Sequence record: MN871446.1
Direction: 5' to 3' (one strand)
Length of the DNA: 64,000 nt
DNA from: Klebsiella phage KpLz-2_45
A model generated the notes under the pieces. The model ran no database searches, was not told the DNA's origin, and worked only from the letters and a program-made list of their open reading frames with translations. How positions within the stretch are numbered: position 1 is the first letter of the stretch; every line of letters starts with the position of its first letter. Position numbers and translations under genes: made by a program. Positions 1,658-31,876 of the stretch are shown here, one piece after another.

Positions 1658-2296
1658 TTAATTAATGGGAACTAAAACAGGATGATTCTCTGCTTTACTG
1701 ACTAATTGCGCCTTTGTCTTCTTGTCACCAATCATGGCGTTTCCTTTCCCTGAAACAAACTTCACAAAACCCTCGCCTTTACCCAATTGGTTGGCTATTA
1801 CCCTACCTTGTTTTTCAATAAAACGCCGATCTGTCCCTAAGGCTTTATTCGCCAATTCCCCGTCAACAAAAGCACTTCCGAAATAATTAACGCGAAACAC
1901 CTTTGTCTTGCCGCCCAACAAGTAAGGAACTTCTATTCCTTTTTCGGGTAACGCGTCAACGTACTTTAACGAAGAGAAAATAACGCGCGCACTTCTCCCT
2001 TTCTCAACCCCTTTGTGAATCAACATGACGATATCGTCCGCTAAGGTCTTCCAGCTATAGGGGTATAAGTTCCCGTGGAAATAAATCCCGATCAGTTGCG
2101 ACAATTCCCCTTGGGTATTTATTGCCATTAACCCGTCGAAGTCACGCACTTTGTGCATATCGCAGGTTAAGCTCACAATTGCGCGCTCACCAAAGAAGAT
2201 ACTGGCTTTTACCAACTCCCCGTGTTTACCTACTTCACCGATAATCGATTGTTTTTTATCCGTGTACCGAAAAGTTGTATTCAACACTCGACTCAT
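1658..2296 (-). CDS. Hypothetical protein
   Basis: Long ORF packed tightly in the minus-strand operon; no motif I can name. Confidence 0.45.
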   Translation of the reverse strand: MSRVLNTTFRYTDKKQSIIGEVGKHGELVKASIFFGERAIVSLTCDMHKVRDFDGLMAINTQGELSQLIGIYFHGNLYPYSWKTLADDIVMLIHKGVEKGRSARVIFSSLKYVDALPEKGIEVPYLLGGKTKVFRVNYFGSAFVDGELANKALGTDRRFIEKQGRVIANQLGKGEGFVKFVSGKGNAMIGDKKTKAQLVSKAENHPVLVPIN

Positions 2297-2308
2297 GTCG
2301 TCCCCTCT

Positions 2309-2656
2309 TTAAACCAATAACCCTAAAGCAATACCAAAAAGCGTACCGATGAAAATCCCTAAGACAACGGGTTTAAATGCACTACTCAGCGATCCATTAC
2401 GCTCTAAGAGACGTTCCCTTTCTTTGGCCAGTAATTCCTGTTCTTTCTCGTTTAACGCGTCAGCGTGGCGCTGAGCGTCTTCTGCGGTCTCATACACCGA
2501 GAAAGTCCGACAACCAAATTGATCAGTTTCATGCGTATAACGGTATTCGTCGTCGTAGCTCGTGACCTTTCTGTCCATGGGTAAGTCGTTAATCGACAAC
2601 TGATATTTATTGTACATCACGACGTAACCCTTTTTGTATCGATTGATTCCGTACAT
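2309..2656 (-). CDS. Small tail-anchored membrane protein
   Basis: C-terminal hydrophobic segment VVLGIFIGTLFGIALGLLV after a charged coiled region. Confidence 0.4.
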   Translation of the reverse strand: MYGINRYKKGYVVMYNKYQLSINDLPMDRKVTSYDDEYRYTHETDQFGCRTFSVYETAEDAQRHADALNEKEQELLAKERERLLERNGSLSSAFKPVVLGIFIGTLFGIALGLLV

Positions 2657-2700
2657 TTCATTTCCTCCGTTAAGTAATGAATTTTATCGAGGGGTATTTT

Positions 2701-3042
2701 TTATTTTTCCTGTATATCAAATTCCCGGTAGCGTCTAATAAATTCTAACACTCCTTTTGCCCACCGGGCGTTAAAAGTGGCTCTGTCCAGCGAATGGTAC
2801 AGGATGACAGTATCATCCTGCCAACCCTCTTTACTTTTCCGTAGCCAATCGATAAAGAGACGTAACCCTTCGGCTTTTTCAGATTCTTGAATAAAGCGTG
2901 TATACTGGTCGACGTCCTGAGGATCTTCTTTCTTTAAACGTAAGAGATCCTTTTGAAGCTGATTCACGATTAACTCAAAACGAGCAGTGTAACGATCCTC
3001 CTGAGTTAATCGGTTAAAATCCAAATAGGGTTCTTTGGTCAT
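2701..3042 (-). CDS. Hypothetical protein
   Basis: ORF within the operon spacing. Confidence 0.4.
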   Translation of the reverse strand: MTKEPYLDFNRLTQEDRYTARFELIVNQLQKDLLRLKKEDPQDVDQYTRFIQESEKAEGLRLFIDWLRKSKEGWQDDTVILYHSLDRATFNARWAKGVLEFIRRYREFDIQEK

Positions 3043-3066
3043 TTCTTTTCCCTTTCCCTTTAAAAC

Positions 3067-3465
3067 TCAATTGATTGCCGTAGACTTCTCTACACTGCCG
3101 TAACGGTTAATAACTAATTCAGTACCGTCTCGTTCAAAGTACGGCTGAAGAACCATTACCCCATTACTGTTATCAATGACCTTGTAAAAGACGGCTGAAA
3201 CACCGTACTCGTTGTAAACGACGGCTTTAATGCAATGTTCAAAGGTCTCCTCGTTTAACGTTTGGAAGGGGATCATCATGAAACCGTCGCCTTCTTTTTT
3301 GTTGATGTAAATAACATTGTCCCCTGGAACGAGTTCTTCTAACGTACTCGGGTTGTAGAAGTCAAAGTTACCTGCGGGGGTTCCCAGGGTGATATCTTTC
3401 GTTCTTACTTTGGTCATCTGTGGGGTATTCATTTTTCTTCCTTCAATGAAACATAAAACATCCAT
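3067..3465 (-). CDS. Hypothetical protein; the start may be the internal Met (MNTPQM)
   Basis: ORF; the 5' end overlaps the upstream gene, so the true start is probably internal. Confidence 0.4.
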   Translation of the reverse strand: MDVLCFIEGRKMNTPQMTKVRTKDITLGTPAGNFDFYNPSTLEELVPGDNVIYINKKEGDGFMMIPFQTLNEETFEHCIKAVVYNEYGVSAVFYKVIDNSNGVMVLQPYFERDGTELVINRYGSVEKSTAIN

Positions 3466-4163
3466 CTTTGAGTGTTGTGAGCAAAATCACCTTTAATCAC
3501 GACGCTCTCTGTAGGGTTGTTCTCGGACGAGAACAACCTTTCTGCTGCATCCCTGATAATCTGGATGTTATCACGGAAAAGGTCGCTCTGTTGTAGACGG
3601 TGAGTTTCCCTGAAACCAAATGCCTCAAACGGAATATTTTGGAACTCCTTTAAACCCCTTTCGACTAAGAAGTCTTGATCATCCGTATGAAAACCTCCCA
3701 GAGCCTTATAATTTTCTGGGGGAACTATGGCTATCTGCCAATTTCCGGCTGAATAACAAGGGAGTTCAGTCAGAATGAATTCTATCTCTTTGTGCTCAGA
3801 ATCGATAATGTTAGGGCCTTTTAACTCTTTAATAATCTGAGAAATCCTGGCCGAAGAGAGTTCGTACATCTCCGCTAATTTCCTTTGTGGGATACCGGAT
3901 AAAAACCCCACGCCAATATTCAGCTTTTTGATCTCTGCTAAGATCGCTTTTGTTTCCGCAAGCATCTTATCAATCTCAGGGTTAGCTTGACCCAGCTTAT
4001 GCTGATACTCTAACCTTTCAACAATAGTCTTTGTTAAAGTTAATAAGTCAGTCTGTGTATTTGTCCATTTCACTAACTCCTCAATACTCAACGATTTCTT
4101 CATCTTTTCCTCCTCAAGAGACATAATCCCAGAGGAGAGTTTTATACTCTCTCTCCAGGTCAA
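3429..4163 (-). CDS. Protein with a sigma-70 region-4.2-like HTH; putative transcription factor or sigma-like protein
   Basis: GIPQRKLAEMYELSSARISQIIKEL resembles the sigma region 4.2 recognition helix (S-x-R-I-x-Q-I). Confidence 0.45.
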   Translation of the reverse strand: MTWRESIKLSSGIMSLEEEKMKKSLSIEELVKWTNTQTDLLTLTKTIVERLEYQHKLGQANPEIDKMLAETKAILAEIKKLNIGVGFLSGIPQRKLAEMYELSSARISQIIKELKGPNIIDSEHKEIEFILTELPCYSAGNWQIAIVPPENYKALGGFHTDDQDFLVERGLKEFQNIPFEAFGFRETHRLQQSDLFRDNIQIIRDAAERLFSSENNPTESVVIKGDFAHNTQRWMFYVSLKEEK

Positions 4164-4439
4164 TTATTCGTATTGTTAACTACCAGCGTAATCTTCATTT
4201 CAATCAGATTACTTGAAGGAGTATTACTCCCTTCCGGTACCTCTTTACCTTAACCGAGAGTTCACTGTGTTCACTCTCTCTAAGGAAGGTACCTGCAGTA
4301 CGTAATAGCTAACTGTTTCGGATTGGTGCATTATTTAAAACCACCCCCTTTCCCCCAAAACTTTATTTTTACCATTACCCTCAAAGTGACCAGTAAAACG
4401 ACCTTTGATTCACATATAAAGAAAAAGCGTTAAAAAATA

Positions 4440-5411
4440 TTAATTACTTTTCTCAATAAACCGATAACGAAATAATTCAGTTTCAATAATCGGGAAATAG
4501 GATCTGTCACGGTATTCGTTTAAGATCAAATTGTGGTAAAAAATCGCCTTCTTAAACTCGCTATCTGATTTATGAACATCCCTATAACGATTGATAGAGG
4601 GTCTTTCATAATACGCGTAACCAAGAGAAACGATCAGGTTGATGAGTTTACTTTGAGTATCGATCCCATCTAAGGATTCGTAGTGATCGAAATAATCTTT
4701 GTAAACATTATCGGATGGATCTAAAACGAAACGATCAAAATTCCAGCCAGAGTGCCTGATGACCAACTGGTATTTTTCTGGATTGCGTAGAATAAGATCC
4801 AGTGGAACACCCAGTCCAAACTCATCTTCGTTATCGCCATGATAAAGAGAATTAACCTCTCGATCAATGAGTTCAATAACACGTTCCTCTGGTAAATTAA
4901 CCGAAAATTGAAGCTCCTTCATTCTGCGAATATTGGCAATGACCCCAGCTAACTCCGGATCTTTAGGTTTCCTTAATAACCCTACCCCAAAGTCGGTGTC
5001 AATTTGAAAGGTACATTTATCGGAAGTTAAATTTTCGATATACCGCCGGGCAGCCTCTTGAAAATATTCAGTTATTTGACTATCGTCAAGGGCTAAATCG
5101 GTAAAGCAATATTCGGCCTCAGCAAAACGCCGAAATAAATCAACCACGGTTTCTTTCCGTTTCTTCTTATCCCATGAAGGATTAAAATGAGTACTGGTAG
5201 CAACGTTGGATCGGAATAAAGAATCACCCGGTAGCCGTACCATAACCCCATTTCGCTGACTGAAAAATTGTACAGCAATGAGATCTTGTTGATCTATTCC
5301 AAAAAGATGATTGAACCGTTCAATTGAGTTCTCTAAATCTTTACCATCGAAATAAATGTCGAGATCATTATTTTCTTCTACTTGCTCCGTGCGATACAGT
5401 GTCTTTTTCAT
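4440..5411 (-). CDS. Hypothetical protein
   Basis: 323-aa ORF whose start overlaps the stop of the next gene (ATGA). Confidence 0.5.
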   Translation of the reverse strand: MKKTLYRTEQVEENNDLDIYFDGKDLENSIERFNHLFGIDQQDLIAVQFFSQRNGVMVRLPGDSLFRSNVATSTHFNPSWDKKKRKETVVDLFRRFAEAEYCFTDLALDDSQITEYFQEAARRYIENLTSDKCTFQIDTDFGVGLLRKPKDPELAGVIANIRRMKELQFSVNLPEERVIELIDREVNSLYHGDNEDEFGLGVPLDLILRNPEKYQLVIRHSGWNFDRFVLDPSDNVYKDYFDHYESLDGIDTQSKLINLIVSLGYAYYERPSINRYRDVHKSDSEFKKAIFYHNLILNEYRDRSYFPIIETELFRYRFIEKSN

Positions 5412-5663: not shown

Positions 5664-6029
5664 TTAGTGTTTAATGAGTCTGTTGAAGTATTCGTCAGGG
5701 ATAGTAACTAAGGGTTGAGATTTCCCTTCGCTGATTAATCCGATCGGAAAACCCTGATCACTGTACCCGATGATTTTCACTAATCGGATATGTTTAAGGT
5801 GTCCCGATTGATAAACAACATTATTCCGTCGTTTCCATTCTTCGATCAACCGCTGTTCTTCGAAGAAGTCATTGGCGGTCGTTAAATAACCCTCAGGAAT
5901 CTCTGAGGGCGTTTTCACTGCAATAAGGTAGTACTTATCCAAAACTAACTGATCGATGCTCAGAGGCGCATTCAGGAACCCTGACATCGGTCGAGTTTGG
6001 TTAGCGGTAATATCGATCGTGACTTTCAT
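5664..6029 (-). CDS. Hypothetical protein
   Basis: ORF. Confidence 0.45.
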   Translation of the reverse strand: MKVTIDITANQTRPMSGFLNAPLSIDQLVLDKYYLIAVKTPSEIPEGYLTTANDFFEEQRLIEEWKRRNNVVYQSGHLKHIRLVKIIGYSDQGFPIGLISEGKSQPLVTIPDEYFNRLIKH

Positions 6030-6038
6030 CCTTCGTCC

Positions 6039-6482
6039 TTAAAAATACAAATGAACATCAACTAAGGCTGCACCCAATTCATCGTCTGTCATCCTCCTCA
6101 CGATGACCGGGTCTAACTTACCGTTACCACAGCCCAAATGCGTTAATGCAAGCGTGTTGACCTGTTCCCGTTCTACAAAGACTGCGATCCGTTTTAAACA
6201 GGCTTCTACCCACGGGTACCGAGAAGGGTAACGCCAATGGTCTTTAGTCGCCGCCAGTAACAGTCGCGTCCCGTCGTTCGCTTCCGTATACCAGACGTTC
6301 CCTGGTTTCCATTGGGCTTTATCGCACTGCGCTCTATACCGCGCGTAGACCTCAGGGTAGCGTTGCTTGCATGTCAAGGCGACTCCAGCACCCATTGCCC
6401 CTACGCAATTTACGGTTACGACCTTTACGACCTCAGCCTCTTCCTCAAACAAATCCCCTTTCCGCAAATATAAAATACCCAC
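6039..6482 (-). CDS. Macro-domain protein (ADP-ribose binding / ADP-ribosyl hydrolase fold)
   Basis: VVTVNCVGAMGAGVALTCKQ matches the macro-domain phosphate-binding signature (VNAAN...GGGV.GAI). The distal LALTHLGCGNGKLDP matches the second glycine-rich macro loop. At 147 aa it is a stand-alone macro domain. Confidence 0.6.
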   Translation of the reverse strand: MGILYLRKGDLFEEEAEVVKVVTVNCVGAMGAGVALTCKQRYPEVYARYRAQCDKAQWKPGNVWYTEANDGTRLLLAATKDHWRYPSRYPWVEACLKRIAVFVEREQVNTLALTHLGCGNGKLDPVIVRRMTDDELGAALVDVHLYF

Positions 6483-6584
6483 TTTCTTCTCCTGTTCTCA
6501 TTATCGTTAAATGCTTCACAGAATCCATCCTCAGCGGTTTTCTCTTCAAACCCGACCAAAGATATCTCTAAACAAAGAAAATGG

Positions 6585-7265
6585 TTAACGTTGCCAAATA
6601 GGGAGATTTCTTTTCTTCAGGTCTTTTACCCGTGACATCCAAAACCGATGACTCAGTCGATACGGATACGGTAACAATACCCGACCATTATCCACAGGTT
6701 CAATCGAGTCAGTAAAGTACGCGTTCGGACTGGAGATCGGATAGGTCGTCACGACGACATCGGTACCTGCCTTCTGTCTCTTTTCTAAACGCCTTTGAAA
6801 CCGCCGGAGCTTGTAACGGTTTGCTTTTCGTCTTTGAGGTTCTACCGCCAACCCGTAGTACTGCACAAACGCTTTGAGCGCTACAGTTAAACGAGCGTAG
6901 GGAGAGAGTGCCACTTTATCCCAATCCACTACGTGCCCTGAACCATCGTGTTCCACATCCATATTCGGGAACATCTCACCGACCAACCAATACTCGCTGA
7001 CACTGGTACTATAGCCCAGGGGTTGGAGCGAATCGAAGGCTTTCCCATCGACCTCAATCCACGCGTGCCAGCCGTGGTCATTCCAGACGGCGCTATAGCC
7101 TTTCTTCAGGAGCGCGACACTCAGCGCTTGTCGAACTTGATAACAGCACCCGTTACTGAGAATGAATCGACTCTCGTCGACTGTTTCGTATTTCGGTCCT
7201 GTCAGATGAAATAATGTAATCAACGTTTTTAAGCAATCTTGTACGTACAACTGAGCTTCGGTCAT
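6585..7265 (-). CDS. Transglutaminase-like cysteine protease-fold protein
   Basis: Cys-His-Asp arrangement: SNGCCYQVRQALSVALL, then HAWIEVDGKAFDS, which resembles the TGase-core G.C...A / HAW.E / D motifs. Confidence 0.45.
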   Translation of the reverse strand: MTEAQLYVQDCLKTLITLFHLTGPKYETVDESRFILSNGCCYQVRQALSVALLKKGYSAVWNDHGWHAWIEVDGKAFDSLQPLGYSTSVSEYWLVGEMFPNMDVEHDGSGHVVDWDKVALSPYARLTVALKAFVQYYGLAVEPQRRKANRYKLRRFQRRLEKRQKAGTDVVVTTYPISSPNAYFTDSIEPVDNGRVLLPYPYRLSHRFWMSRVKDLKKRNLPIWQR

Positions 7266-7717
7266 TTCTCCTCCGTTTGGTATTTTAAGAGCATAAAACG
7301 AAGTCCCTCACGGACTCCGATAAATAGTTAATCAAATAGTATTTAAAAAATGATTACCCTAAAAGAATAGGTCAACCCCAGTAACCGGCAAGGATGTCGT
7401 TCAGTCTACTCGATCTCGCTCCGTTCCGTATCCTCCCCCTCTACGAGTGTGAGTCTACTACACTACTCTCGCTCTCGTTCCCTTCACTCCTCTCTTCTTG
7501 CCGGTTTCAATTTTGTTCATAATAATAAAAGTAGTAAAATTTTAATTTCCTCTATTCGAACGTTAGAGAGAATAGATTAGGAATATTTATTTCTTAGTTT
7601 ATTTAATCCTTGAATTAACGATACTAAAGAATCTTTCGATAGAAAGAAATAAAACTCTCCCTCCTTCCGTCAGGAGAGAGATTGCCGTTCGGTATAAGTG
7701 AATAGGCGGCGGGGCGA
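7266..7717. other. 452-nt non-coding region holding a 10-bp inverted repeat that flanks a ~104-nt pyrimidine-rich tract, then an AT-rich segment
   Basis: No credible ORF. aaccggcaag (7383-7392) pairs with cttgccggtt (7497-7506). The tract between them is C/T-rich on the plus strand. A weak hairpin plus T-run near 7655-7680 would terminate the GNAT gene. Confidence 0.5.
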
Positions 7718-8200
7718 TCAGCAGCGGCGAACCAGGTTGGCGGCTTTGAACATGGCCCGCGCCTTGTCGTCGAAGTGCGTCTCGTTTAAAATTCCTTCTC
7801 GTTTTAATTTCGTAAAGAAGCCGCAGCTTTGCAAGTCCCATGGATGCCAATAGACTTCTTTATCCTCTGCCTCTGGCATAATCGCTTTTACCAATTCTAC
7901 TGCTAAGCCGGTTCCCCGATAACTAGACCTCACGTAAAGCATTCCTTCCCAGACTCGTTTGTTCCCGCGTTCCCCTGGTATTAATACCACAACAGCGTCT
8001 TCCCGGTAGAAAATCGCTCGGCATGGAATCTCTCCTTGCCGTTGGTCGTAGAGCGCCTCTAACATTTTCCCTTTGTACAAATAGAGTTCGTGTTCCAGAC
8101 ACAAACGATAAATCTCGCTGCTGTCGTTAATCTGTACGAAAGTCTCTTTAAAACGTTCCGTGATAGTCTCTACGCTTTTTATTAGTTTTGGACGAGTCAT
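7718..8200 (-). CDS. GNAT family N-acetyltransferase
   Basis: Motif A RGTGLAVELVKAI (R/Q-x-x-G-x-G/A); size is typical at 160 aa. Confidence 0.55.
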   Translation of the reverse strand: MTRPKLIKSVETITERFKETFVQINDSSEIYRLCLEHELYLYKGKMLEALYDQRQGEIPCRAIFYREDAVVVLIPGERGNKRVWEGMLYVRSSYRGTGLAVELVKAIMPEAEDKEVYWHPWDLQSCGFFTKLKREGILNETHFDDKARAMFKAANLVRRC

Positions 8201-8377: not shown

Positions 8378-10561
8378 TTAGATGATCTGATTCAAGTGTG
8401 CGGTACGTGTGCTCAATACCCTTCCCCGGAAGAGTACCTCTTTACTCCGCCAGTAGTCGAGATGTTTATCAATGTTCATGCAAACAAAGCAATGATAACT
8501 CTGTGGGAATTTCTTCTCCCCTTTGAGTTCACGCAAACGCCCTAACGCCTGAACGTTCGCGTTTGGTGAGTCAATCGCAACGGTCAGATAGGCTTGCGTC
8601 AAGTTAGGGATATCCACCGCGGTACCGGATTTACCAATCGTACTGAAAATGATATCCGAATCCAGTAACAATTGATAATCGTCTCCTGATGTAAAGGAGT
8701 TGATCACCAGTTCCGGGAGACGTTTCCTGAAGAACGTGGCCAGGCGCTGGCACATCTCAATAGTCGCCGAGAAGATTAACAGCTTATGTTCCCTTTTCCT
8801 CTTCTCTAACCAGTTATCCTTGGTGTAGTCAAAAAGCGATTCTTGCCACCGTTGCTCTCGTTGCCTGTCTGCCATGATCCAGGCTTCGTACGTCGTATGA
8901 CTGTACGACCCTTGACCTCCGACGACTTTCGCTTTCTGCCAATCCTTCAGATTATACTGGACTTTCACCAGATCGATATACCTACTTGGTTGCCCGCCAT
9001 TTCGCCGCAGTTTTTTCGGTAAGAAGGTTTCGTAGATGAAAAGTTGAAAATCCATCTTAGCCAATAACGTAGCGGTCAAATAAATCTTTTTCGGAACATG
9101 CGAATAGAGATCAGAGACAAAGTTCGCATGAATTTCTTTATGCGCTTCATCAATGATAACCAGACCTATCCCCAGAAACTCCCAGAGATCTCTCGGATTG
9201 ATATCTTCGCAATCAGTCCCAACCACTCTCCCGTTATTCCAGTTCTTGTAAAAGTCCCTCAACGTGGCTGTGGAAATGAAAATCGCCTTAACATTATCAA
9301 TACCGGTAGTCTTCGCTTCCCGTAATAAACGATAGAGCTTTACACAACCGCAGCACGAACGAACCTCTTCCGGCTTGAGATTGAGTTTAGCGTAAAACTC
9401 CGGTATCCATCGATCCTCGTAGCCGCCGAGTGTTACCACCGCAAAACGGGTTCCGTTATTCTTTGCCATCGCCAATGAACAAGCCGTGTTATGGGTCACG
9501 ATATAGTCATCGGTGATGTAGAGATGTTCAGGGTCATCAATCATGATGCACTGAGTGGCCTCAGGCTCGCGTTCTTCGATTGAAGTAATAGCTAACCGCT
9601 CTTGGGTGAAATCGACACGTAATGTGTCCCTTGCCTCATCTAAGTAGGCAAGGCCACCATAAGCCCGTGCGGTATATTGTATTGCCTCCAACAATTCAAG
9701 GCCCCCTAAACTAACCGTAAACTCCATTTCGTCCTGCGAGGTCTCTGTTACCATTCGGAAGTCGGCAGGTAAAGTCTGACCGAGAATGAGCGGCACAGAG
9801 AAAGAACTTTCCCCTAGCCGGTCTTTTATTTCGCGGGTCGTGATAACTTTATCTTGTTGTTCCTCGTTTTCTCGTACTGACCAGAGATGTTCCGGGTTAA
9901 CATCGGTATACCGCCCATCAGCAAAGTGGATACGCCAGACGTCAGTCACGCCCTGCGGGAAGACCCCTATGACAGAAGCGAGGCGCCTCTTAGGTGTCAC
10001 GACCTGTTGCCCGACTTTCATCTCGCCCATGGTTAACCAACCGTCAGGGACTCTGATCTTAGAAGAAAGCGTCTGAGCCTTACCGAACCCAGGCTCTGCG
10101 GTGATCGCTTTCTGGATACCGGGACCCGAACCGAATTCAATAATCGGCACCTGGTTATCCCACGGTGTGAAGTCCATCTCAAACTCAAACTTCACCGGTT
10201 CGTACATCGGAACAACATCGATTTCAAACGTGCAGCCATTCCATTGGTATTTTTCCGCTTCCTGTTTAAAGCGTTCCAGTGTGTTGATGTGGAAACACGT
10301 CTCTTCCGTTTCAAGGTCTCGGCGTGCGTAAACCTTGGTAGGTTCCATTCGGAATCGCCCACGTTTCTTCACTAAGTTTTTCTCAATAAAGTGCTCAGTG
10401 AATTGTCGACGGAATTGTCGGCCTTTGGCGGTATAGGCAAAAACGGAAAAGTAGTGGCTATATTGCGTGATACGTAGATCCAATGTCTTAGCCCTCACAG
10501 GTGATAATCGAATCTCGTAGATTCTTTTCTCTAGGTATAGGTCTCTATAGGAATTACTCAC
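8378..10561 (-). CDS. SF2 (DEAH-type) DNA helicase with an intein-like insertion in the Walker A P-loop
   Basis: EPGFGK and TACSLAM join to give a clean GxGKT Walker A. Motif II is VIIDEAH and motif VI is QALGRLRE. The ~197-aa insertion begins AQTLSS and ends IVTHN followed by Thr (HN then +1 Thr, as at intein C-termini). The start codon is GTG. Confidence 0.65.
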   Translation of the reverse strand: MSNSYRDLYLEKRIYEIRLSPVRAKTLDLRITQYSHYFSVFAYTAKGRQFRRQFTEHFIEKNLVKKRGRFRMEPTKVYARRDLETEETCFHINTLERFKQEAEKYQWNGCTFEIDVVPMYEPVKFEFEMDFTPWDNQVPIIEFGSGPGIQKAITAEPGFGKAQTLSSKIRVPDGWLTMGEMKVGQQVVTPKRRLASVIGVFPQGVTDVWRIHFADGRYTDVNPEHLWSVRENEEQQDKVITTREIKDRLGESSFSVPLILGQTLPADFRMVTETSQDEMEFTVSLGGLELLEAIQYTARAYGGLAYLDEARDTLRVDFTQERLAITSIEEREPEATQCIMIDDPEHLYITDDYIVTHNTACSLAMAKNNGTRFAVVTLGGYEDRWIPEFYAKLNLKPEEVRSCCGCVKLYRLLREAKTTGIDNVKAIFISTATLRDFYKNWNNGRVVGTDCEDINPRDLWEFLGIGLVIIDEAHKEIHANFVSDLYSHVPKKIYLTATLLAKMDFQLFIYETFLPKKLRRNGGQPSRYIDLVKVQYNLKDWQKAKVVGGQGSYSHTTYEAWIMADRQREQRWQESLFDYTKDNWLEKRKREHKLLIFSATIEMCQRLATFFRKRLPELVINSFTSGDDYQLLLDSDIIFSTIGKSGTAVDIPNLTQAYLTVAIDSPNANVQALGRLRELKGEKKFPQSYHCFVCMNIDKHLDYWRSKEVLFRGRVLSTRTAHLNQII
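9488..10077 (-). mobile_element. Putative mini-intein (~197 aa, no recognisable homing-endonuclease motif) inserted after the Walker A lysine of the helicase. Coordinates are ±2 nt.
   Basis: The extein junction restores GFGK|TACS = GxGKT. The C-terminal ...YIVTHN|T is a canonical His-Asn plus +1 Thr. The internal TDVNPEH is a possible block-B TxxH. Confidence 0.5.
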
Positions 10562-26437: not shown

Positions 26438-28339
26438 TTAACGACCGCCGAAACCGTAAGAAGAACGGGCACGAGAACGGAAACCTGCACCGTCATAGCC
26501 GTTGGATTCGTAACGAGAGGTATAACCACGACGGCTGGTACGGCCATCCTGAGTAATACCATCAGCGGTAACCACCATGCCTGCTGCAGACAGTGCGCGG
26601 GTCAGGCCGAACAGCCAGTTGGCGTTCACTTCGATGACGTCTGCACGGTCGGTGATCTGATACTGACCGCCGGTGTAGTCTTCGATGATTTTTTCCATCT
26701 GGTCCATACGGACTTGCAGATCGATCGAATCGTCGTTCAGGCAACGATCGTAATCGGCAACCACCTGCGGAGATTTCAGACCGAAGTTGGTCAGAATTTC
26801 GTAGTAACCGATTTCACGCAGGTCACGTTTATGACCCTGTTCGTCGATCCAGGTGCCCAGCAGTTGCGGCATGTCGCGGATGATACCCACGTCGTACAGA
26901 TCTGAGGTGTTCATGATGGTAGAGAAACGATCGCCGGAGATGTTGTCGGCGGCTTCGATCAGCACGTCAACAGCTTCTTTACGGTTCGGGTTCGTTTCGT
27001 CGCACGCATCAACCAGCAGCTGCAGCAGCGGGGTGTTGATGGAAGAACGCGGGATCTGGATCTGAACGATCTGGCTGTTCTCACGAACAACGTTAGCCAC
27101 CAGGCCAGCCCATTCGTCGTCGTTCAGAACTTCCGGGAGTTTTTCAAACTCGCCTTTCAGTTCATAGGTCAGAGCTTCAGCGGTACGCAGCGCGCCTTTG
27201 GTGTTCAGCGGACGCAGACCCTGAATCAGAGCCGGTTCAGTCATCAGTGCAGATACCTGTGCCAGAGAGAACATCAGGTATTCAGGAATCGCCACGCATT
27301 TCAGATCGCTGATCACCAGAGCGATACCGTAGATACGGGTATCGAAGTCTTCCGCTTTCTTTTTGCGCAGTGCAAAGAAACTGTTGGACTGCTCTTCTTC
27401 GCCTTTGTAATACAGGTCGACGTGGGAGATCAGACCGGCCAGCTGAGTGGACTCACGCTCGGACAATACGTTAACAATACCGCCACGACGTTCGTCACGC
27501 GGCGCCACCATCAGATCAACAACGATATCGGCGCGATGCGGCATTTCGGTGATGTCGTCAGCAACGTCACCTTGATGGAACGCGATGTTCGCCAGCAGAT
27601 CGTTATTTTTCAGGTCCAGCGCCGCAATGCTGAACTCGTTAGTGGTCAGGATCGCGTTAACGGAATAGATGATCTGGTTGATCACGGCAGAAGCGATACG
27701 CTCCAGTTCTGCGTCGGTCGGTTTGTCCAGGAAGATCGGGGACGCCGCCAGATGCTGAACCTGGCCGGTGAATGCCGGGTTGGACAGGGCAATCAGATCG
27801 TCCAGGGACTCTTTATAGCCGATCGCTTCGTACTGGTCGTTAGCGGTGGTGGTGAAACGCACGGTGTGGTCACGACCAACCTGCACGGCCTGTTTCGGCA
27901 TCACGGTGTTACCCACGAAGATCACGGTAGACGCGAAGATCATGCCGTTGTCTTTCAGACGGGCAGCGATGACCGCAGCGTCCAGTTTCATTTGGGTATC
28001 TTTGCCTGTTGCCGGCGTTACCGTCCATTCCAGGACACCGTTCAGGCTGATCGCGGCGCTGTGCTGTTTCTGGATTTCTTTGGTCAGTTCGACGAATTTG
28101 GCTACGTCGCCTGCCGCAGAGTTCAGGGACAGTACTGGCGCATCTTTACGGAAGTTATAGGATGAAGTCACTTTTTTCTCCTGACGGGAATCATTTTCGT
28201 TGGAACGGGTGTAAAAGGAACGGCGGCGTGCAGAGGATTCTTCCTGGCGACCTTCGTCGCGAGAAGTTTCCTGCGCACCAGTTTCTACTGCTGCTTCTTC
28301 TGCTTTGTTTTTGTTGTGATCGTCATCACGTAAGGCCAT
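26438..28339 (-). CDS. chmA: Probable chimallin (ChmA), the major phage-nucleus shell protein
   Basis: 633 aa with strongly optimal codon usage, its own promoter motif and terminator, and disordered charged N- and C-terminal extensions. It is adjacent to the beta' N-terminal RNAP gene (phiKZ gp54/gp55 synteny), and PhuZ is encoded nearby. I cannot verify the fold from sequence alone. Confidence 0.55.
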   Translation of the reverse strand: MALRDDDHNKNKAEEAAVETGAQETSRDEGRQEESSARRRSFYTRSNENDSRQEKKVTSSYNFRKDAPVLSLNSAAGDVAKFVELTKEIQKQHSAAISLNGVLEWTVTPATGKDTQMKLDAAVIAARLKDNGMIFASTVIFVGNTVMPKQAVQVGRDHTVRFTTTANDQYEAIGYKESLDDLIALSNPAFTGQVQHLAASPIFLDKPTDAELERIASAVINQIIYSVNAILTTNEFSIAALDLKNNDLLANIAFHQGDVADDITEMPHRADIVVDLMVAPRDERRGGIVNVLSERESTQLAGLISHVDLYYKGEEEQSNSFFALRKKKAEDFDTRIYGIALVISDLKCVAIPEYLMFSLAQVSALMTEPALIQGLRPLNTKGALRTAEALTYELKGEFEKLPEVLNDDEWAGLVANVVRENSQIVQIQIPRSSINTPLLQLLVDACDETNPNRKEAVDVLIEAADNISGDRFSTIMNTSDLYDVGIIRDMPQLLGTWIDEQGHKRDLREIGYYEILTNFGLKSPQVVADYDRCLNDDSIDLQVRMDQMEKIIEDYTGGQYQITDRADVIEVNANWLFGLTRALSAAGMVVTADGITQDGRTSRRGYTSRYESNGYDGAGFRSRARSSYGFGGR

Positions 28340-28623: not shown

Positions 28624-29718
28624 ATGATCTCAGCTTTCGAATTTCTAAACCGTCAATCCGTGAAGACGTTTTTTCCGGGACAACTCACCTTGCTGCGCAA
28701 CAATGCCGACATTAATTTAAAGAACATTAAACAACATTACCGTAATAGCATCCGTGCTGTTGAGAGTGATCATATACTGATTCAGATACTTCAACATTTA
28801 CCGTCACGGGTAGACATGAACGATGAACAGTATTATCGATTCTGCCACTCCGCCAGTAAACTGACACACAGGGCGTTGAACCTCAATACGGAAACCGTGC
28901 TTTCTGGTAAAGCCAGTAAACCATGGTTTTACGGTCAAGGTATGACCGAGTTCTACATCGTTGAGGAAAAAGATCTCCCTTATCGATTCGACGCAAAGAA
29001 CTACTGGCAAGAACTTATTCCAGTACGCCCAATTTCGCACAATCTGACAGGGCTTTCTTTTAACGCCCGTGACGGGCAGTACTTTAGTCACTATAAAGGA
29101 AACGCTTTCCTGTCTATCGACATCGGTCTTCTGGCAGTCCAGTATCGGCACTGGTCGCAGTTTAACGTCGGTACAGAAGCGAACCCGCATCCCGTTTCTA
29201 TCAACCAATTTGTTTATCAGTACCCTTTAGTCAACATGATCGAAGAGGACATGAATTTTTGTTTCTTCAATCGTCTTCGGTTGTCGACAGGGTATATCCC
29301 GGTTAACGATGACGCCGCACGACACGGCTTGGCAATCTACGATTTACGTCCACTGGTTGATAAAGTCTGGGAACAGTGGTTACAACGCGCCAGAAGCGCT
29401 CCGCGGCGCTTCATTGACCTTCCGGCACAAATCCCCGGGTTATTTACAGAAACACTTCTTGAAGCGATTACGATCCCGGATATCTTTTTCAACCGTCAGA
29501 ACCTCGGTCTTTACACATTGGCAAATTTACCGTACTTAAGTACCCTGTCCCGTCTTTCTGGTGAAACAGGGTCTAAAGACAACGGTAGTGTAAAAACTCA
29601 ACTGGAACGTTGGTACGCGCGTTTTGTTAACGGAGGTTACCTGACACCGATAACGGGGATTAATCCTCAAGATACTCTACAGGTTCTGTTGGACGAAGTG
29701 CTGATTCCACTTCGTTAA
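28624..29718 (+). CDS. Hypothetical protein (plus strand), divergently transcribed from the chimallin gene
   Basis: ORF downstream of a 285-nt AT-rich region with three TATAATAG-like elements. Its 3' end overlaps the convergent 738-aa gene by ~59 nt. Confidence 0.45.
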   Translation: MISAFEFLNRQSVKTFFPGQLTLLRNNADINLKNIKQHYRNSIRAVESDHILIQILQHLPSRVDMNDEQYYRFCHSASKLTHRALNLNTETVLSGKASKPWFYGQGMTEFYIVEEKDLPYRFDAKNYWQELIPVRPISHNLTGLSFNARDGQYFSHYKGNAFLSIDIGLLAVQYRHWSQFNVGTEANPHPVSINQFVYQYPLVNMIEEDMNFCFFNRLRLSTGYIPVNDDAARHGLAIYDLRPLVDKVWEQWLQRARSAPRRFIDLPAQIPGLFTETLLEAITIPDIFFNRQNLGLYTLANLPYLSTLSRLSGETGSKDNGSVKTQLERWYARFVNGGYLTPITGINPQDTLQVLLDEVLIPLR

Positions 29719-31876
29719 AGTCAGAGAAAGCATCCTCACGAGAAATTTGATCAAAGACCAGTTTAGATTGGTCTTTATCAAAGAGGTAGTATTCCAGTGA
29801 CTCAAGAACCAGGTAGAAAGGTGACATGGCGCTGCCGATAATTTTACGAATGTTTGTCGCCTCAAGGATATCCTCTGGAATCCCGATTGACATGACAATA
29901 CTTTCTGGCAGCAGGATACGACCCAAATAAGTCTTATTCTTCGCTGCCAGGAATTGTCGCATTCGTTTCGCCATTTCCTGATCTTTCCAGTTCGCTAACC
30001 ATTTCTCCGTTTTGGTTTTCGTATCGTGGATAATACTGAACGACAACGCTGAGTATGGCGGCGGTTCAATAAGACCAAACTTCGGCGCAAAGACTTCTTG
30101 CCACAGTTCGTAGTTCAGATACGGCGTATTCTGTTCTTCGGTCTTCTTAGTGTACCCTTCCTCTTCTTTAACACGTGCCGCTTTAAGGTACGTGGTCTCC
30201 CCTTTACGAATCGATTCGTAGATCGTATACTCCCACCGGGCTACCCACCGTAAGTAACGGCTCAGTTCCAACATTTTCCCTTCCGTAACACTGTCGACAA
30301 TCTCTTCGATCATCAAATCAAGATCTTTACGTACTCCGGCTGGTGAGTTGGAAGCAATGAGCTCTACGCCTTTCTTCTCTCGGTCTTCGATATAGACCCC
30401 TTCTTGTACGCGTTTGTTTGCCGCATAGTGCTTAGCACGACTGGTCAACATGAACACCGGGAAAAGGAATTCGTTCTTCATTGCCAGACGGAAGACTTCT
30501 TTCTCGTCCTGAACACCCATGTTTACGGTCATGGTAGCAAGGTTATGCGTGGTCGTCTGCGAGACAAGGAACGCAATCCCTTCAGCTAGAATGATGTTTT
30601 CTTTCGTTAGCAAATCATTATCAGAGTACCAACGAATCCAATCCTGAACCGTAAAGATAGCGGAGTCGGTATCAGACCCTACACCACTGCGTCTAACGGC
30701 ATGGGGGAAGTCAGAAATCAGGAACGGGATGTTTCTTGACATCAGGAACGTATCGATGATTTCTTTATATTTGTCCAGCGTCTGGTAAATGAGTGCACAG
30801 GTGGAACCTAAACGCCAGTAATCGGCTTTAGCAATAACTTCTTCGTGGAACGGGTTTTTATCGCCAATGATTTCCGGGAACATAACCGTGATCTGTGCGA
30901 TGGTGTCTTCATCGACAAACTTCATCCATCCTTCGTAGTCAGGTACCGGCGTTTCTGCTGGAGTGACTAAACCACGAATCAGATCCCTTACAATCGCCTC
31001 GTTGAACTGACGAATATGATAAAGGTCGCCCATGTAAACGAACGCTGCTCGTTCGTAATCGCTACAGCCTTTCAGGAAACGTTTTAAATTGCGGTCTCCC
31101 CCTTCTGATCGCCAGTAGAGGTCAGACGAATACGACAGTACCGCTAACGTTTCTTCAACCGACGGGATATGCAGATTAAACTTCTTAACGGTATTTTCTA
31201 CTTTTGCCCAATCGGTCAGTTCAAGAATACTGGTCAAGTTAGCGTAGACAACATCAGGTCGCCAATAGTGGCGAGAGCCAGACAATAAACGGTCATTGTT
31301 GGAGTTGGCAATACCGTTGGCAATACGACAGCAACTTGTCAATACCGGGTGCGTTGAGCGGTCGTAAAGCGGTGAGTGCTCAGAACGGTGGTTACCGGAG
31401 ATGGCGTTGTTCAGAATCTTTTTGTTGTTCTGATTGTTGTTGTGGAAGGTTGCCTTAATAAAGTTACCGACTTTCTTCGCTTCAAACATTTCATGTTTTT
31501 CGGCGGAGCGCTTTTTCAAGTTACCTTTGATATATTCAGAGAGTAACGATAACTTTTGGTGCGGCGGTAACACGGTCGTGAACGTAGGTGCCATTAACCA
31601 TTCGTTATCGAGAATGTCTTTGAGGTACTGTGAGAAAGGTACCATAATCGGTTTTTGATCCAGATTCTCATCGCGTTCCAACATGCAAAAAACAGGATCG
31701 GTCACGCCGTTATCCGGGTTTTTCAGTTCCTCGACAACAAAGTCACGACATTCTTCGAAAGGTCTTCCAGTGCTGCGTTGTATGAATAAAGCAGTTTGAA
31801 TAATGTACGACTCGTGCACGCCAAGGTCTCGATGGTAATCCTTAGCGGTGCGCGTAAATGGGTTAGAAACTTTCAC
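29660..31876 (-). CDS. Large hypothetical protein (738 aa)
   Basis: Long ORF containing GVGSDTDSAIF, which resembles polymerase family-B motif C. Other family-B motifs are not found in the right order. Confidence 0.5.
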   Translation of the reverse strand: MKVSNPFTRTAKDYHRDLGVHESYIIQTALFIQRSTGRPFEECRDFVVEELKNPDNGVTDPVFCMLERDENLDQKPIMVPFSQYLKDILDNEWLMAPTFTTVLPPHQKLSLLSEYIKGNLKKRSAEKHEMFEAKKVGNFIKATFHNNNQNNKKILNNAISGNHRSEHSPLYDRSTHPVLTSCCRIANGIANSNNDRLLSGSRHYWRPDVVYANLTSILELTDWAKVENTVKKFNLHIPSVEETLAVLSYSSDLYWRSEGGDRNLKRFLKGCSDYERAAFVYMGDLYHIRQFNEAIVRDLIRGLVTPAETPVPDYEGWMKFVDEDTIAQITVMFPEIIGDKNPFHEEVIAKADYWRLGSTCALIYQTLDKYKEIIDTFLMSRNIPFLISDFPHAVRRSGVGSDTDSAIFTVQDWIRWYSDNDLLTKENIILAEGIAFLVSQTTTHNLATMTVNMGVQDEKEVFRLAMKNEFLFPVFMLTSRAKHYAANKRVQEGVYIEDREKKGVELIASNSPAGVRKDLDLMIEEIVDSVTEGKMLELSRYLRWVARWEYTIYESIRKGETTYLKAARVKEEEGYTKKTEEQNTPYLNYELWQEVFAPKFGLIEPPPYSALSFSIIHDTKTKTEKWLANWKDQEMAKRMRQFLAAKNKTYLGRILLPESIVMSIGIPEDILEATNIRKIIGSAMSPFYLVLESLEYYLFDKDQSKLVFDQISREDAFSDFNEVESALRPTEPVEYLED

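What the first reader, a model, noticed from the sequence alone, without database searches (positions are those of the whole stretch)
6039..6482. Stand-alone macro domain gene in the accessory gene cluster (candidate ADP-ribosylation counter-defense)
The protein carries the macro-domain glycine-rich phosphate-binding signature VNCVGAMGAGVA and the distal GCGNGK loop, at the size of a single macro domain (147 aa). Macro domains bind ADP-ribose or remove ADP-ribose modifications. In a phage this suggests reversal of host ADP-ribosylation-based immunity (for example DarT-type DNA ADP-ribosylation) or processing of NAD-derived signals. It sits among small accessory genes that include a transglutaminase-like protease, a GNAT and an AAA+ ATPase.
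Basis: partly seen in the sequence, partly recalled or inferred. Interest (0 to 1): 0.6.

Follow-up and report, generated by a model that had tools for sequence, protein, structure and literature searches.

The report
Phage anti-DarT macrodomain (AdfM-type)
This gene of a nucleus-forming Klebsiella jumbo phage encodes a stand-alone copy of the enzymatic half of the bacterial DarG antitoxin, which most likely strips ADP-ribose off phage DNA to defeat the host DarTG2 defence; that trick was already shown experimentally in 2026 for the related phage PhiKZ.

Summary
ORF 6039..6482 (minus strand, GTG start, AGGAG 6 nt upstream) encodes a 147-aa macrodomain carrying both quoted motifs. It is specifically a DarG2-type macrodomain: PADLOC DarG E=1e-37, NCBIfam antitoxin_DarG N-terminal half only. 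The AlphaFold model (pLDDT 95) matches the Thermus and M. tuberculosis DarG macrodomains best (TM 0.90-0.92), ahead of TARG1. DarG's catalytic Lys (K80), Asn (N25), W83 and the G-x-G-N-G loop are all conserved, and TARG1's catalytic Asp is absent. The protein lacks DarG's C-terminal DarT-binding domain, and no DarT was found in the window or the phage record, so it is an orphan antitoxin-like enzyme. The window is a ~305-kb Klebsiella jumbo phage that encodes chimallin and PhuZ, so it is nucleus-forming. PhiKZ gp104 (AdfM, Cell Rep 2026) is a homologue (35% identity) shown to remove DarT2 ADP-ribose from DNA and protect the phage. DarTG2 occurs on a clinical K. pneumoniae plasmid. Verdict: a new, divergent member of a known kind, of modest interest.

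The parts
6039..6482 (-). CDS of the 147-aa stand-alone DarG2-type macrodomain (AdfM-like), stop codon included
   Evidence: ORF list and translation. Pfam Macro. PADLOC DarG E=1e-37. NCBIfam antitoxin_DarG positions 3-146 of 338, 127.6 bits. AF2 pLDDT 95.1. Foldseek top hits 5m3e/5m3i/5m31.
6489..6493 (-). Shine-Dalgarno AGGAG, 6 nt upstream of the GTG start
   Evidence: Read directly from the sequence.
6378..6410 (-). Codons for N25 and the first glycine-rich loop G28-A-M-G31-A-G33-V-A35. N25 is equivalent to Taq DarG N22 and PhiKZ AdfM N23.
   Evidence: N25, G28, G31, G33 and A35 are invariant in 96 homologues. N22A in Taq DarG and N23A in PhiKZ AdfM reduce activity.
6234..6248 (-). Codons for T79-K80-D81-H82-W83. 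K80 is equivalent to the catalytic Lys80 of Taq DarG; W83 is the proposed thymine-stacking Trp.
   Evidence: T79 and K80 are invariant and W83 is >=90% conserved. Alignment to 5m31. K80A inactivates Taq DarG.
6120..6134 (-). Codons for the distal loop G117-C-G119-N120-G121. It matches the ADP-ribose-gripping loop of DarG, with G121 where TARG1 has its catalytic Asp125.
   Evidence: G117 and G121 invariant. Taq DarG G117/G119/N120/G121 hydrogen-bond ADP-ribose. Alignment to a TARG1 sequence recalled from memory puts G121 opposite D125.
6585..7265 (-). Upstream neighbour, 226 aa, unknown function. Context only, not shown to be functionally linked.
   Evidence: A 47%-identical homologue lies directly upstream of the macro gene in a distant jumbo-phage contig (L003). 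It is absent in FBKp24. No Pfam or PDB family found.
5664..6029 (-). Downstream neighbour, 121 aa, starting 9 nt after the macro stop. Unknown function, context only.
   Evidence: 51% identical to FBKp24 gp349, in the same position. No family hit.
7718..8200 (-). GNAT acetyltransferase, a conserved neighbour of the macro gene in Kp24-like and Moabite-like phages. Context only.
   Evidence: Pfam Acetyltransf_1, 29 bits. Same adjacency in FBKp24 and Moabite.
26438..28339 (-). Chimallin (phage nuclear shell protein). It defines the phage as nucleus-forming, the setting in which AdfM acts.
   Evidence: Pfam Chimallin_Phikzvirus 75.8 bits against cutoff 27. PDB chimallin/PhuN hits.
36522..37490 (-). 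PhuZ-like phage tubulin (context)
   Evidence: Pfam TubZ_C_2 27.6 bits against cutoff 27, and Tubulin 27.2 bits.

Best explanation
The gene encodes an orphan, stand-alone DarG2-type macrodomain, an AdfM-type 'anti-DarT factor macro' of a nucleus-forming Klebsiella jumbo phage. Proposed mechanism: when the phage infects a cell carrying a DarTG2 toxin-antitoxin defence, the DarT2 toxin ADP-ribosylates thymidines in single-stranded phage DNA (TNTC-type motifs), which blocks replication and packaging. The phage enzyme binds the ADP-ribose through its two glycine-rich loops, stacks the modified thymine on W83, and uses K80, assisted by N25, to cleave the thymidine-ribose bond. This restores unmodified DNA. 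Because it lacks DarG's C-terminal DarT-binding domain, it should act purely catalytically and independently of the exact DarT2 variant. Shown here: the fold, the family, conservation of the active site, orphan status, the chimallivirus context, and the presence of DarTG2 in the host species. Inferred by homology to Taq/Mtb DarG and PhiKZ AdfM: the enzymatic activity, the DNA substrate, the protective role and possible nuclear localisation.
For: (1) Family: PADLOC DarG E=1.1e-37. NCBIfam antitoxin_DarG covers only profile positions 3-146 of 338. PhiKZ AdfM hits the same half with a similar score, 137.8 against 127.6 bits.
(2) Fold: AF2 pLDDT 95.1. The best PDB matches are the Taq and Mtb DarG macrodomains (TM 0.90-0.92, rmsd 1.6-2.2 A), then the Thermosipho DarTG fusion, then TARG1.
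(3) Active site: N25, T79, K80, G117 and G121 are invariant, and W83 and other sites (T23, C118) are >=90% conserved, in 96 homologues; G119 and N120 were >=90% conserved in the first 30-sequence alignment. These align with Taq DarG N22, T79, K80, W83 and G117-G121, whose mutation reduces or abolishes DNA de-ADP-ribosylation. The Taq macrodomain alone suffices as an antitoxin (PMC5179494).
(4) Direct precedent: PhiKZ gp104/AdfM is 35% identical (E=4e-26). It removes DarT2 ADP-ribose from ssDNA, rescues DarT2 toxicity and is needed for infection of DarTG2+ hosts (PMC13309987).
(5) Same biological setting: chimallin and PhuZ are in the window. The relative phiKp24 was described as encoding shell and tubulin proteins (PMC8386662).
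(6) Orphan status: none of 70 window ORFs hits a DarT or other PADLOC model, or an ART Pfam domain. tblastn with a DarT2 finds nothing in this phage's record.
(7) The target exists in the host: K. pneumoniae plasmid p4-KP21300 carries an annotated DarT thymidine ADP-ribosyltransferase overlapping a 371-aa macro gene.
(8) The gene is retained in all 11 related phage genomes and at a syntenic locus in the more distant Moabite and metagenomic jumbo phages.
Against: There is no experiment on this protein.
- It is only 34-35% identical to PhiKZ AdfM. It falls in a separate well-supported clade whose relationship to the AdfM clade is unresolved (bootstrap ~0 at deep nodes).
- Taq K29, whose K29E mutation is inhibitory, is Ala32 here. 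PhiKZ AdfM also has Ala at this position and is active.
- Macrodomains of the DarG/TARG1 group can act on other substrates.
- The prevalence of DarTG2 in Klebsiella was only sampled (2 plasmid records).
- The DarT search of the full 305-kb genome used a single-sequence tblastn, which could miss a very divergent DarT.
Confidence: 0.75

Rival explanations
1. It is a hydrolase for a different ADP-ribosylated substrate. Candidates are protein ADP-ribosylation (TARG1/MacroD-like), RNA ADP-ribosylation by other defence toxins, or modifications made by the phage's own ADP-ribosyltransferases. Under this reading DarT2-modified DNA is not its physiological target.
For: TARG1 is the next-best structural match (TM 0.84-0.86), and TARG1 and DarG share the catalytic Lys. 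The window clade is separate from the experimentally tested PhiKZ AdfM clade. DarG-like macro hits in Streptomyces phages lie under genes annotated as ADP-ribosyltransferase, which shows that macro/ART pairings exist in phages.
Against: Every sequence and structure measure ranks DarG above TARG1, MacroD, Poa1p and viral macros. TARG1's catalytic Asp is replaced by the DarG-type Gly121 (using a remembered TARG1 sequence; DarG lacks the dyad according to PMC9411070). The thymine-stacking W83 is conserved. No ART domain was found among the 70 window ORFs.
Confidence: 0.12
2. It processes free NAD-derived metabolites or signals: ADP-ribose-1''-phosphate phosphatase (hence the 'phosphatase' annotations), O-acetyl-ADP-ribose deacetylase, or degradation of ADPR-based immune signals.
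For: Database names for homologues include 'phosphatase', 'ADP-ribose 1-phosphate phosphatase', 'Appr-1-p processing' and 'O-acetyl-ADP-ribose deacetylase'. Weak PDB sequence hits to Poa1p.
Against: Those names are generic macro-domain labels transferred automatically. Poa1p and MacroD-type structures match clearly worse (TM 0.80-0.82 at 14-16% identity, E~1e-7, against 1e-14 for DarG). The NCBIfam ADP-ribose-binding (YmdB-type) model does not hit the window protein at E<=0.01. The nearest characterised enzymes act on DNA.
Confidence: 0.05
3. It is the antitoxin half of a phage-borne DarTG-like toxin-antitoxin or superinfection-exclusion module, with a divergent toxin encoded nearby or elsewhere in the 305-kb genome.
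For: It matches DarG models strongly. Two flanking small genes have no recognisable family. A Thermus phage does carry a DarT homologue.
Against: It lacks the C-terminal DarT-binding half and scores 127.6 bits against the 250-bit equivalog cutoff. No DarT/DUF4433 hit was found in any of 70 window ORFs, and tblastn found none in the whole phage record. The flanking genes are not consistently linked to it: the 226-aa gene is absent in FBKp24, and the 121-aa gene is replaced in L003.
Confidence: 0.03
4. It is a non-catalytic ADP-ribose reader (binding module) or a decaying gene.
For: Some macrodomains only bind ADP-ribose. The Pfam Macro score is modest (33 bits).
Against: All residues known to be needed for DarG catalysis are intact and invariant across the family. 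The gene is intact and >=98.6% identical at the protein level in the close relatives listed, and it has a good SD.
Confidence: 0.03

Closest known systems
AdfM (anti-DarT factor macro), PhiKZ gp104 and its homologues PhiPA3 gp108, Goslar gp83 and Asesino gp217 (Morgan et al., Cell Rep 2026, PMC13309987)
   Same: Both are stand-alone ~150-160-aa DarG2-like macrodomains encoded by a chimallin-encoding jumbo phage. They show significant homology (35% identity, E=4e-26) and hit the same half of the DarG model. The catalytic Asn and Lys are conserved (N25/K80 against N23/K78), and both have Ala at the Taq K29 position. Both are orphans with no DarT.
   Different: The window protein belongs to a separate, well-supported clade (bootstrap 80-82, against 99 for the PhiKZ clade), and no supported node joins the two. 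The genomic locus differs: here the gene lies downstream of split RNAP beta, helicase and GNAT, and this order is shared with Moabite, whereas in phiKZ the gene follows head-protein genes. It lacks the ~10-residue acidic insertion of PhiKZ AdfM. The host is Klebsiella rather than Pseudomonas. Activity, nuclear import and protection are untested.
DarG2 antitoxin of the DarTG2 toxin-antitoxin system (Thermus aquaticus and M. tuberculosis DarG; PDB 5M31, 5M3E, 5M3I)
   Same: The macrodomain fold is the best structural match (TM 0.90-0.92). Identity to validated full-length DarG equivalogs is 40-45%. The catalytic K80, N22-equivalent, W83 and G117-G121 loop are shared.
   Different: It has only the N-terminal enzymatic half. 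It has no C-terminal DarT-interacting domain and no adjacent DarT gene, and it is encoded by a lytic jumbo phage rather than a bacterial TA operon. It is only 34% identical to the macro domain of the Klebsiella plasmid DarG, so it is not a recent capture from the current host.
TARG1/OARD1 (human terminal ADP-ribose glycohydrolase; PDB 4J5Q/R/S)
   Same: Same macro subclass, and the second-best group of structural matches (TM 0.84-0.86). The catalytic Lys is at the equivalent position.
   Different: About 22% identity. TARG1's Asp125 of the Lys/Asp dyad corresponds to Gly121 here, and TARG1 has Ala where the window protein has W83.
AdfN (phage NADAR orphan antitoxins against DarTG1), and AdfA/AdfB
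   Same: The strategy is the same as AdfN: the phage carries an orphan copy of the antitoxin's enzymatic domain to erase DarT-made DNA ADP-ribosylation (PMC11825919).
   Different: The fold is unrelated (NADAR against macro) and the target base differs (guanine for DarT1, thymine for DarT2). AdfB is proposed to neutralise DarT likely through direct interaction rather than by hydrolysis (PMC11481870).

Membership tests
DarG2-type macrodomain (DNA thymidine ADP-ribosyl glycohydrolase domain) | Macro fold closest to the DarG structures | tested here: met
   AF2 pLDDT 95.1. Foldseek PDB ranks 1-3 are 5m3e, 5m3i and 5m31 at TM 0.90-0.92. phmmer against the PDB gives E~1e-19.
DarG2-type macrodomain (DNA thymidine ADP-ribosyl glycohydrolase domain) | Catalytic lysine equivalent to Taq DarG K80 | tested here: met
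   K80 lies in T79-K80-D-H82-W83, aligns to Taq TKKHW and is invariant in 96 homologues. Its role comes from PMC5179494.
DarG2-type macrodomain (DNA thymidine ADP-ribosyl glycohydrolase domain) | Asn equivalent to Taq N22 / PhiKZ N23, and the ADP-ribose-binding loops (G-x-x-G-x-G and G117-x-G-N-G121) | tested here: met
   N25, G28, G31, G33, G117 and G121 are invariant in 96 homologues; G119 and N120 were >=90% conserved in the first 30-sequence alignment. K29 of Taq is Ala32 here, as in the active PhiKZ AdfM.
DarG2-type macrodomain (DNA thymidine ADP-ribosyl glycohydrolase domain) | Hydrolysis of thymidine-linked ADP-ribose on ssDNA | not testable with these tools
   Needs a biochemical assay. 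Inferred from homology only.
Full-length DarG antitoxin (NCBIfam NF048014 equivalog; type II/IV TA partner of DarT) | C-terminal DarT-binding domain; score above the equivalog cutoff | tested here: not met
   147 aa; matches profile positions 3-146 of 338 only; 127.6 bits against a cutoff of 250. True DarGs P0154 and P0222 score 318 and 360 bits over the full length.
Full-length DarG antitoxin (NCBIfam NF048014 equivalog; type II/IV TA partner of DarT) | Adjacent DarT (DUF4433) toxin gene | tested here: not met
   No DarT hit among 70 window ORFs in PADLOC or Pfam. A DarT2 tblastn finds no hit in this phage's record. Compare the Klebsiella plasmid locus, where DarT and macro overlap.
AdfM (phage anti-DarT factor macro) | Stand-alone DarG2-like macrodomain encoded by a chimallivirus | tested here: met
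   147 aa and orphan. Chimallin and PhuZ are in the same window.
AdfM (phage anti-DarT factor macro) | Homology to PhiKZ gp104 | tested here: met
   BLASTP 35% identity over 139 aa, E=4e-26. PhiKZ104 (P0036) and PhiPA3 gp108 (P0058) are recovered by the family profile.
AdfM (phage anti-DarT factor macro) | Common descent with PhiKZ-type AdfM (same clade / same locus) | tested here: inconclusive
   The two form separate clades (bootstrap 80-82 and 99) and the deep nodes are unsupported. The locus is syntenic with Moabite but not with phiKZ.
AdfM (phage anti-DarT factor macro) | Import into the phage nucleus and protection against DarTG2 | not testable with these tools
   Needs microscopy and phage genetics.
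TARG1-type protein ADP-ribosyl glycohydrolase | Lys/Asp catalytic dyad (K84/D125) | tested here: not met
   The Lys is present, but Gly121 aligns with D125 (TARG1 sequence from memory). DarG lacks the dyad according to PMC9411070.

The most novel reading that the evidence does not exclude
The Kp24/Moabite-type macrodomain may not be a vertical orthologue of PhiKZ AdfM. It may instead be an independent capture of a DarG2-like macrodomain by enterobacterial chimalliviruses, fixed at a different conserved locus next to a GNAT. If so, its substrate range could differ from that of AdfM, for example other DarT families or another nucleic-acid ADP-ribosylating defence in Klebsiella. This would mean nucleus-forming phages acquired this counter-defence more than once.
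Probability: 0.2. Interest if true: 0.45.

Novelty: new member of a known kind. Interest (0 to 1): 0.3.

Why it matters
Kp24-like jumbo phages are candidates for therapy against multidrug-resistant Klebsiella pneumoniae, and DarTG2 is carried on a clinical K. pneumoniae plasmid. A functional AdfM-type enzyme would predict that these phages are insensitive to DarTG2, and that hosts restrict phages lacking it. The finding also extends the AdfM idea from Pseudomonas and Erwinia chimalliviruses to a divergent enterobacterial clade. It supports the view that the phage nucleus is routinely backed up by a DNA-repairing counter-defence enzyme. It does not open a new mechanism.

Tried and rejected
- Single-sequence AlphaFold gave an unusable model (pLDDT 42.5). 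It was replaced by the alignment-based model.
- The supplementary files of the AdfM paper, which would list which chimalliviruses carry AdfM, are not held. Whether Kp24-like phages were already listed could therefore not be checked; they are not named in the main text.
- NJ phylogeny of 270 macrodomains: shallow clades are well supported, but every deep node has ~0 bootstrap. The question 'same origin as PhiKZ AdfM, or independent capture?' stays open.
- My local jackhmmer for the DarG C-terminal domain recognised only 11 of 80 long homologues and missed the Klebsiella plasmid DarG. It is too insensitive to classify the long proteins.
- The sigma-70 promoter scan around the gene found no more sites than in shuffled sequence (4 against 4.1 expected). 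It is also not appropriate for a phage with its own RNA polymerases. The only useful point is that terminator-like hairpins lie upstream of the 226-aa gene (7299..7319 and 7656..7681), and none lies between that gene and the macro gene.
- 'Transglutaminase-like protease' for the upstream neighbour: no Pfam or PDB support.
- A recent capture from the host's DarG was rejected: only 34% identity to the Klebsiella plasmid DarG macrodomain.
- The idea that the phage is outside the Chimalliviridae (the NCBI taxonomy gives no family for Maaswegvirus) was rejected on gene content.

Full report
**1. The observation**

The ORF is real and lies exactly at 6039..6482, on the minus strand. It is 147 aa and starts with GTG, and an AGGAG Shine-Dalgarno lies 6 nt upstream at 6489..6493. 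Orthologues begin at the same residue. The translation contains both quoted motifs: VNCVGAMGAGVA at residues 24-35 and GCGNGK at residues 117-122. Pfam Macro is above its gathering score (33 bits against 22, E=6.5e-8), so chance is excluded.

**2. Which macro domain it is**

The protein is not a generic macro domain.
- The best solved-structure relatives by sequence are 5m3i and 5m31 (E~1e-19). These are the macrodomains of M. tuberculosis and Thermus aquaticus DarG (PMC5179494). Next come the Thermosipho DarTG fusion 7omu and, weakly, TARG1.
- PADLOC gives DarG at E=1.1e-37.
- NCBIfam's antitoxin_DarG equivalog matches at 127.6 bits, but only over profile positions 3-146 of 338 and below the 250-bit cutoff. 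The window protein therefore corresponds to the N-terminal enzymatic half alone.
- PHROG 335 ('phosphatase') matches at E=7e-33.
- A single-sequence AlphaFold run was useless (pLDDT 42.5). With a 96-sequence alignment the model reached pLDDT 95.1 and pTM 0.90.
- Foldseek against the PDB ranks the three DarG macrodomain entries first (TM 0.90-0.92, rmsd 1.6-2.2 A). The DarTG fusion follows, then TARG1 (TM 0.84-0.86). MacroD, Poa1p, alphavirus and coronavirus macros are clearly worse.

Both were tested and neither holds.

**3. Active site**

In Taq DarG, K80 is the catalytic lysine and K80A is inactive. N22A, K29E and G119E are strongly inhibitory. W83 is proposed to stack on the modified thymine. 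N8, L9, T20, N22, V31, Q34, T79, G117, G119, N120 and G121 hydrogen-bond ADP-ribose. The macrodomain alone is sufficient to neutralise DarT.

Using the HMMER alignment to 5m31, these residues map to window D10, L11, T23, N25, V34, T37, T79, K80, H82, W83, G117, G119, N120 and G121. Across 96 homologues N25, G28, G31, G33, A35, T79, K80, G117 and G121 are invariant and W83 is at least 90% conserved; G119 and N120 were at least 90% conserved in the first 30-sequence alignment.

The only notable difference is Ala32 at the Taq K29 position, together with D10 for N8. The experimentally active PhiKZ AdfM has the same residues at both positions.

An alignment with human TARG1 puts window K80 opposite K84 and Gly121 opposite the second catalytic residue D125. 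It agrees with the statement that DarG retains only the Lys of the TARG1 dyad (PMC9411070).

**4. Which phage, and the direct precedent**

- The window is 100% identical to 'Serratia phage KpLz_1_41' (MN871447.1, 305 kb, host K. pneumoniae). It is ~77% identical at the DNA level to Klebsiella phage vB_KpM_FBKp24, genus Maaswegvirus. Relatives annotate the gene only as 'macro domain containing protein' or 'phosphatase'.
- The window itself encodes chimallin (26438..28339; Pfam Chimallin_Phikzvirus 75.8 bits against cutoff 27; PDB chimallin/PhuN hits). It also encodes a PhuZ-like tubulin (36522..37490), a divergent family-B DNA polymerase, a split RNAP beta and PhiKZ-type virion proteins. phiKp24 was already described as encoding shell and tubulin proteins (PMC8386662). 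The phage is therefore a nucleus-forming chimallivirus by gene content.
- Morgan et al. (Cell Rep 2026, PMC13309987) studied the stand-alone macrodomain PhiKZ gp104, which they named AdfM. It is a DarG2-like enzyme that removes DarT2-made ADP-ribose from a TNTC oligonucleotide, and N23A reduces that activity. It rescues DarT2 toxicity, localises to the phage nucleus, and is required for infection of DarTG2+ P. aeruginosa.
- The same paper reports macrodomain homologues in about half of chimalliviruses.
- The window protein is 35% identical to PhiKZ AdfM (E=4e-26). PhiKZ104 and PhiPA3 gp108 are recovered by the family profile.
- The analogous orphan-antitoxin strategy is also known for DarTG1, using NADAR-fold AdfN (PMC11825919).

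**5. Orphan status and target**

- None of 70 ORFs in the 64-kb window matches any PADLOC model other than DarG itself. None matches a DarT or ART Pfam domain.
- tblastn with P. aeruginosa DarT2 finds only a Thermus phage among 50,697 phage records. It finds nothing in this phage's own record.
- DarT2 homologues occur on 80 plasmids, 2 of them from Klebsiella. K. pneumoniae plasmid p4-KP21300 (IncF/IncR, from sputum) carries an annotated DarT thymidine ADP-ribosyltransferase overlapping a 371-aa macro gene. The proposed target system therefore exists in the host species.
- That plasmid's macro domain is only 34% identical to the phage protein, so the phage gene is not a recent capture from the present host.

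**6. Evolution and locus**

- The exhaustive HMMER search finds 5,796 relatives. The top 150 are a mix of stand-alone 140-180-aa proteins and 320-440-aa proteins with an N-terminal macro. Of these, P0154 and P0222 are bona fide full-length DarG (318 and 360 bits) at 40-45% identity to the window protein.
- In an NJ tree of 270 domains, the window protein sits in a clade of stand-alone proteins (bootstrap 82; 80 with three further members). PhiKZ-type AdfM forms its own clade (bootstrap 99). No deep node is supported. The data neither show nor exclude common descent of the two phage clades.
- The locus is conserved in FBKp24, in two metagenomic jumbo-phage lineages and in Serratia phage Moabite: split RNAP beta, then helicase, then a few variable small genes including a GNAT, then the macro gene. 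The Moabite macro is 42% identical to the window protein and 33% to PhiKZ AdfM. phiKZ gp104 lies in a different neighbourhood.
- DarG-like macros occur in 203 phage records, including SPN3US, 201phi2-1, Erwinia jumbo phages and the non-jumbo phiEco32-like phages.

**7. Mechanism and rivals**

The best-supported reading (about 0.75) is a purely catalytic anti-DarT2 factor that erases thymidine-linked ADP-ribose from phage DNA. The fold, the family, the active site, the orphan status and the biological setting are shown. The activity, substrate, protective role and localisation are inferred.

The rivals are less likely, for the reasons listed under each rival explanation:
- another ADP-ribosylated substrate (0.12);
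- NAD-metabolite processing (0.05);
- a phage-borne TA module (0.03);
- a non-catalytic reader (0.03).

**8. Verdict**

The gene is a new, divergent member of a family whose function was established experimentally in 2026, so novelty and interest are modest. The one open point of some interest is whether the enterobacterial chimallivirus clade represents a second, independent capture, possibly with a different substrate range.

Noticed in passing
window 9488..10078 (-), inside the helicase ORF 8378..10561: There is a 197-aa insertion (helicase residues 162-358) exactly between GFGK and T of the Walker A motif, relative to the intein-free 504-aa FBKp24 helicase. The flanks are 81-86% identical. 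The insertion begins with Ala, ends with THN and is followed by Thr, so it looks like a mini-intein, possibly class 3 with a block-F Cys (from my own knowledge). Related contigs carry helicase versions of 504, 700 and 859 aa, and the 859-aa version has a LAGLIDADG hit, so the intein is variable in this lineage.
   Followed up: partly
window 4440..5411 (-): This 323-aa ORF has no family hit and is missing from the MJ359, LPKP23 and KpSz-type relatives (85% query coverage in two pieces). It is present in KpLz_1_41, KpYy_2_45 and KpXa_1, so it is a variable insertion about 600 bp downstream of the macro operon.
   Followed up: partly
window 26438..28339 (-), 36522..37490 (-), 29660..31876 (-): Chimallin (nuclear shell), a PhuZ-like tubulin and a divergent family-B DNA polymerase all lie in the same window. 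NCBI taxonomy places the related genus Maaswegvirus in no family, although the gene content is that of a chimallivirus.
   Followed up: yes
window 6585..7265 (-): This 226-aa protein contains a visible Cys...His...Asp pattern (NGCCYQ ... HAWIEVDGKAFD). It is conserved at 47% identity directly upstream of the macro gene in a distant jumbo-phage contig (L003) but absent in FBKp24.
   Followed up: partly
Thermus phage phiMa MH673674.1 26364..26957 (hit H37): This is the only DarT2 homologue found in 50,697 phage records (39.7% identity to P. aeruginosa DarT2, E=1e-33) and is annotated as hypothetical. It may be a phage-borne DarT.
   Followed up: no
Streptomyces phages Quantum PQ412544.1 152704..153018 and Kela MT310898.1 150955..151311: The DarG-like macro matches fall under genes annotated 'ADP-ribosyltransferase'. 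This suggests macro-ART fusions or mis-annotation in these actinophages.
   Followed up: no
proteins P0133 (441 aa) and P0125 (435 aa): P0133 is a DarG-type macrodomain fused to a DprA DNA-processing domain (TIGR00732, 147.6 bits, below that model's 191-bit cutoff). P0125 contains two tandem DarG-like macro domains. Both are unusual architectures among the closest relatives.
   Followed up: no
L007 (K. pneumoniae plasmid p4-KP21300, NZ_CP124697.1) 2098..4544: This DarTG2-type operon has an unusually long DarT (444 aa) overlapping a 371-aa macro protein by 4 nt. The macro protein's C-terminal part was not recognised by my crude DarG C-terminal profile.
   Followed up: partly
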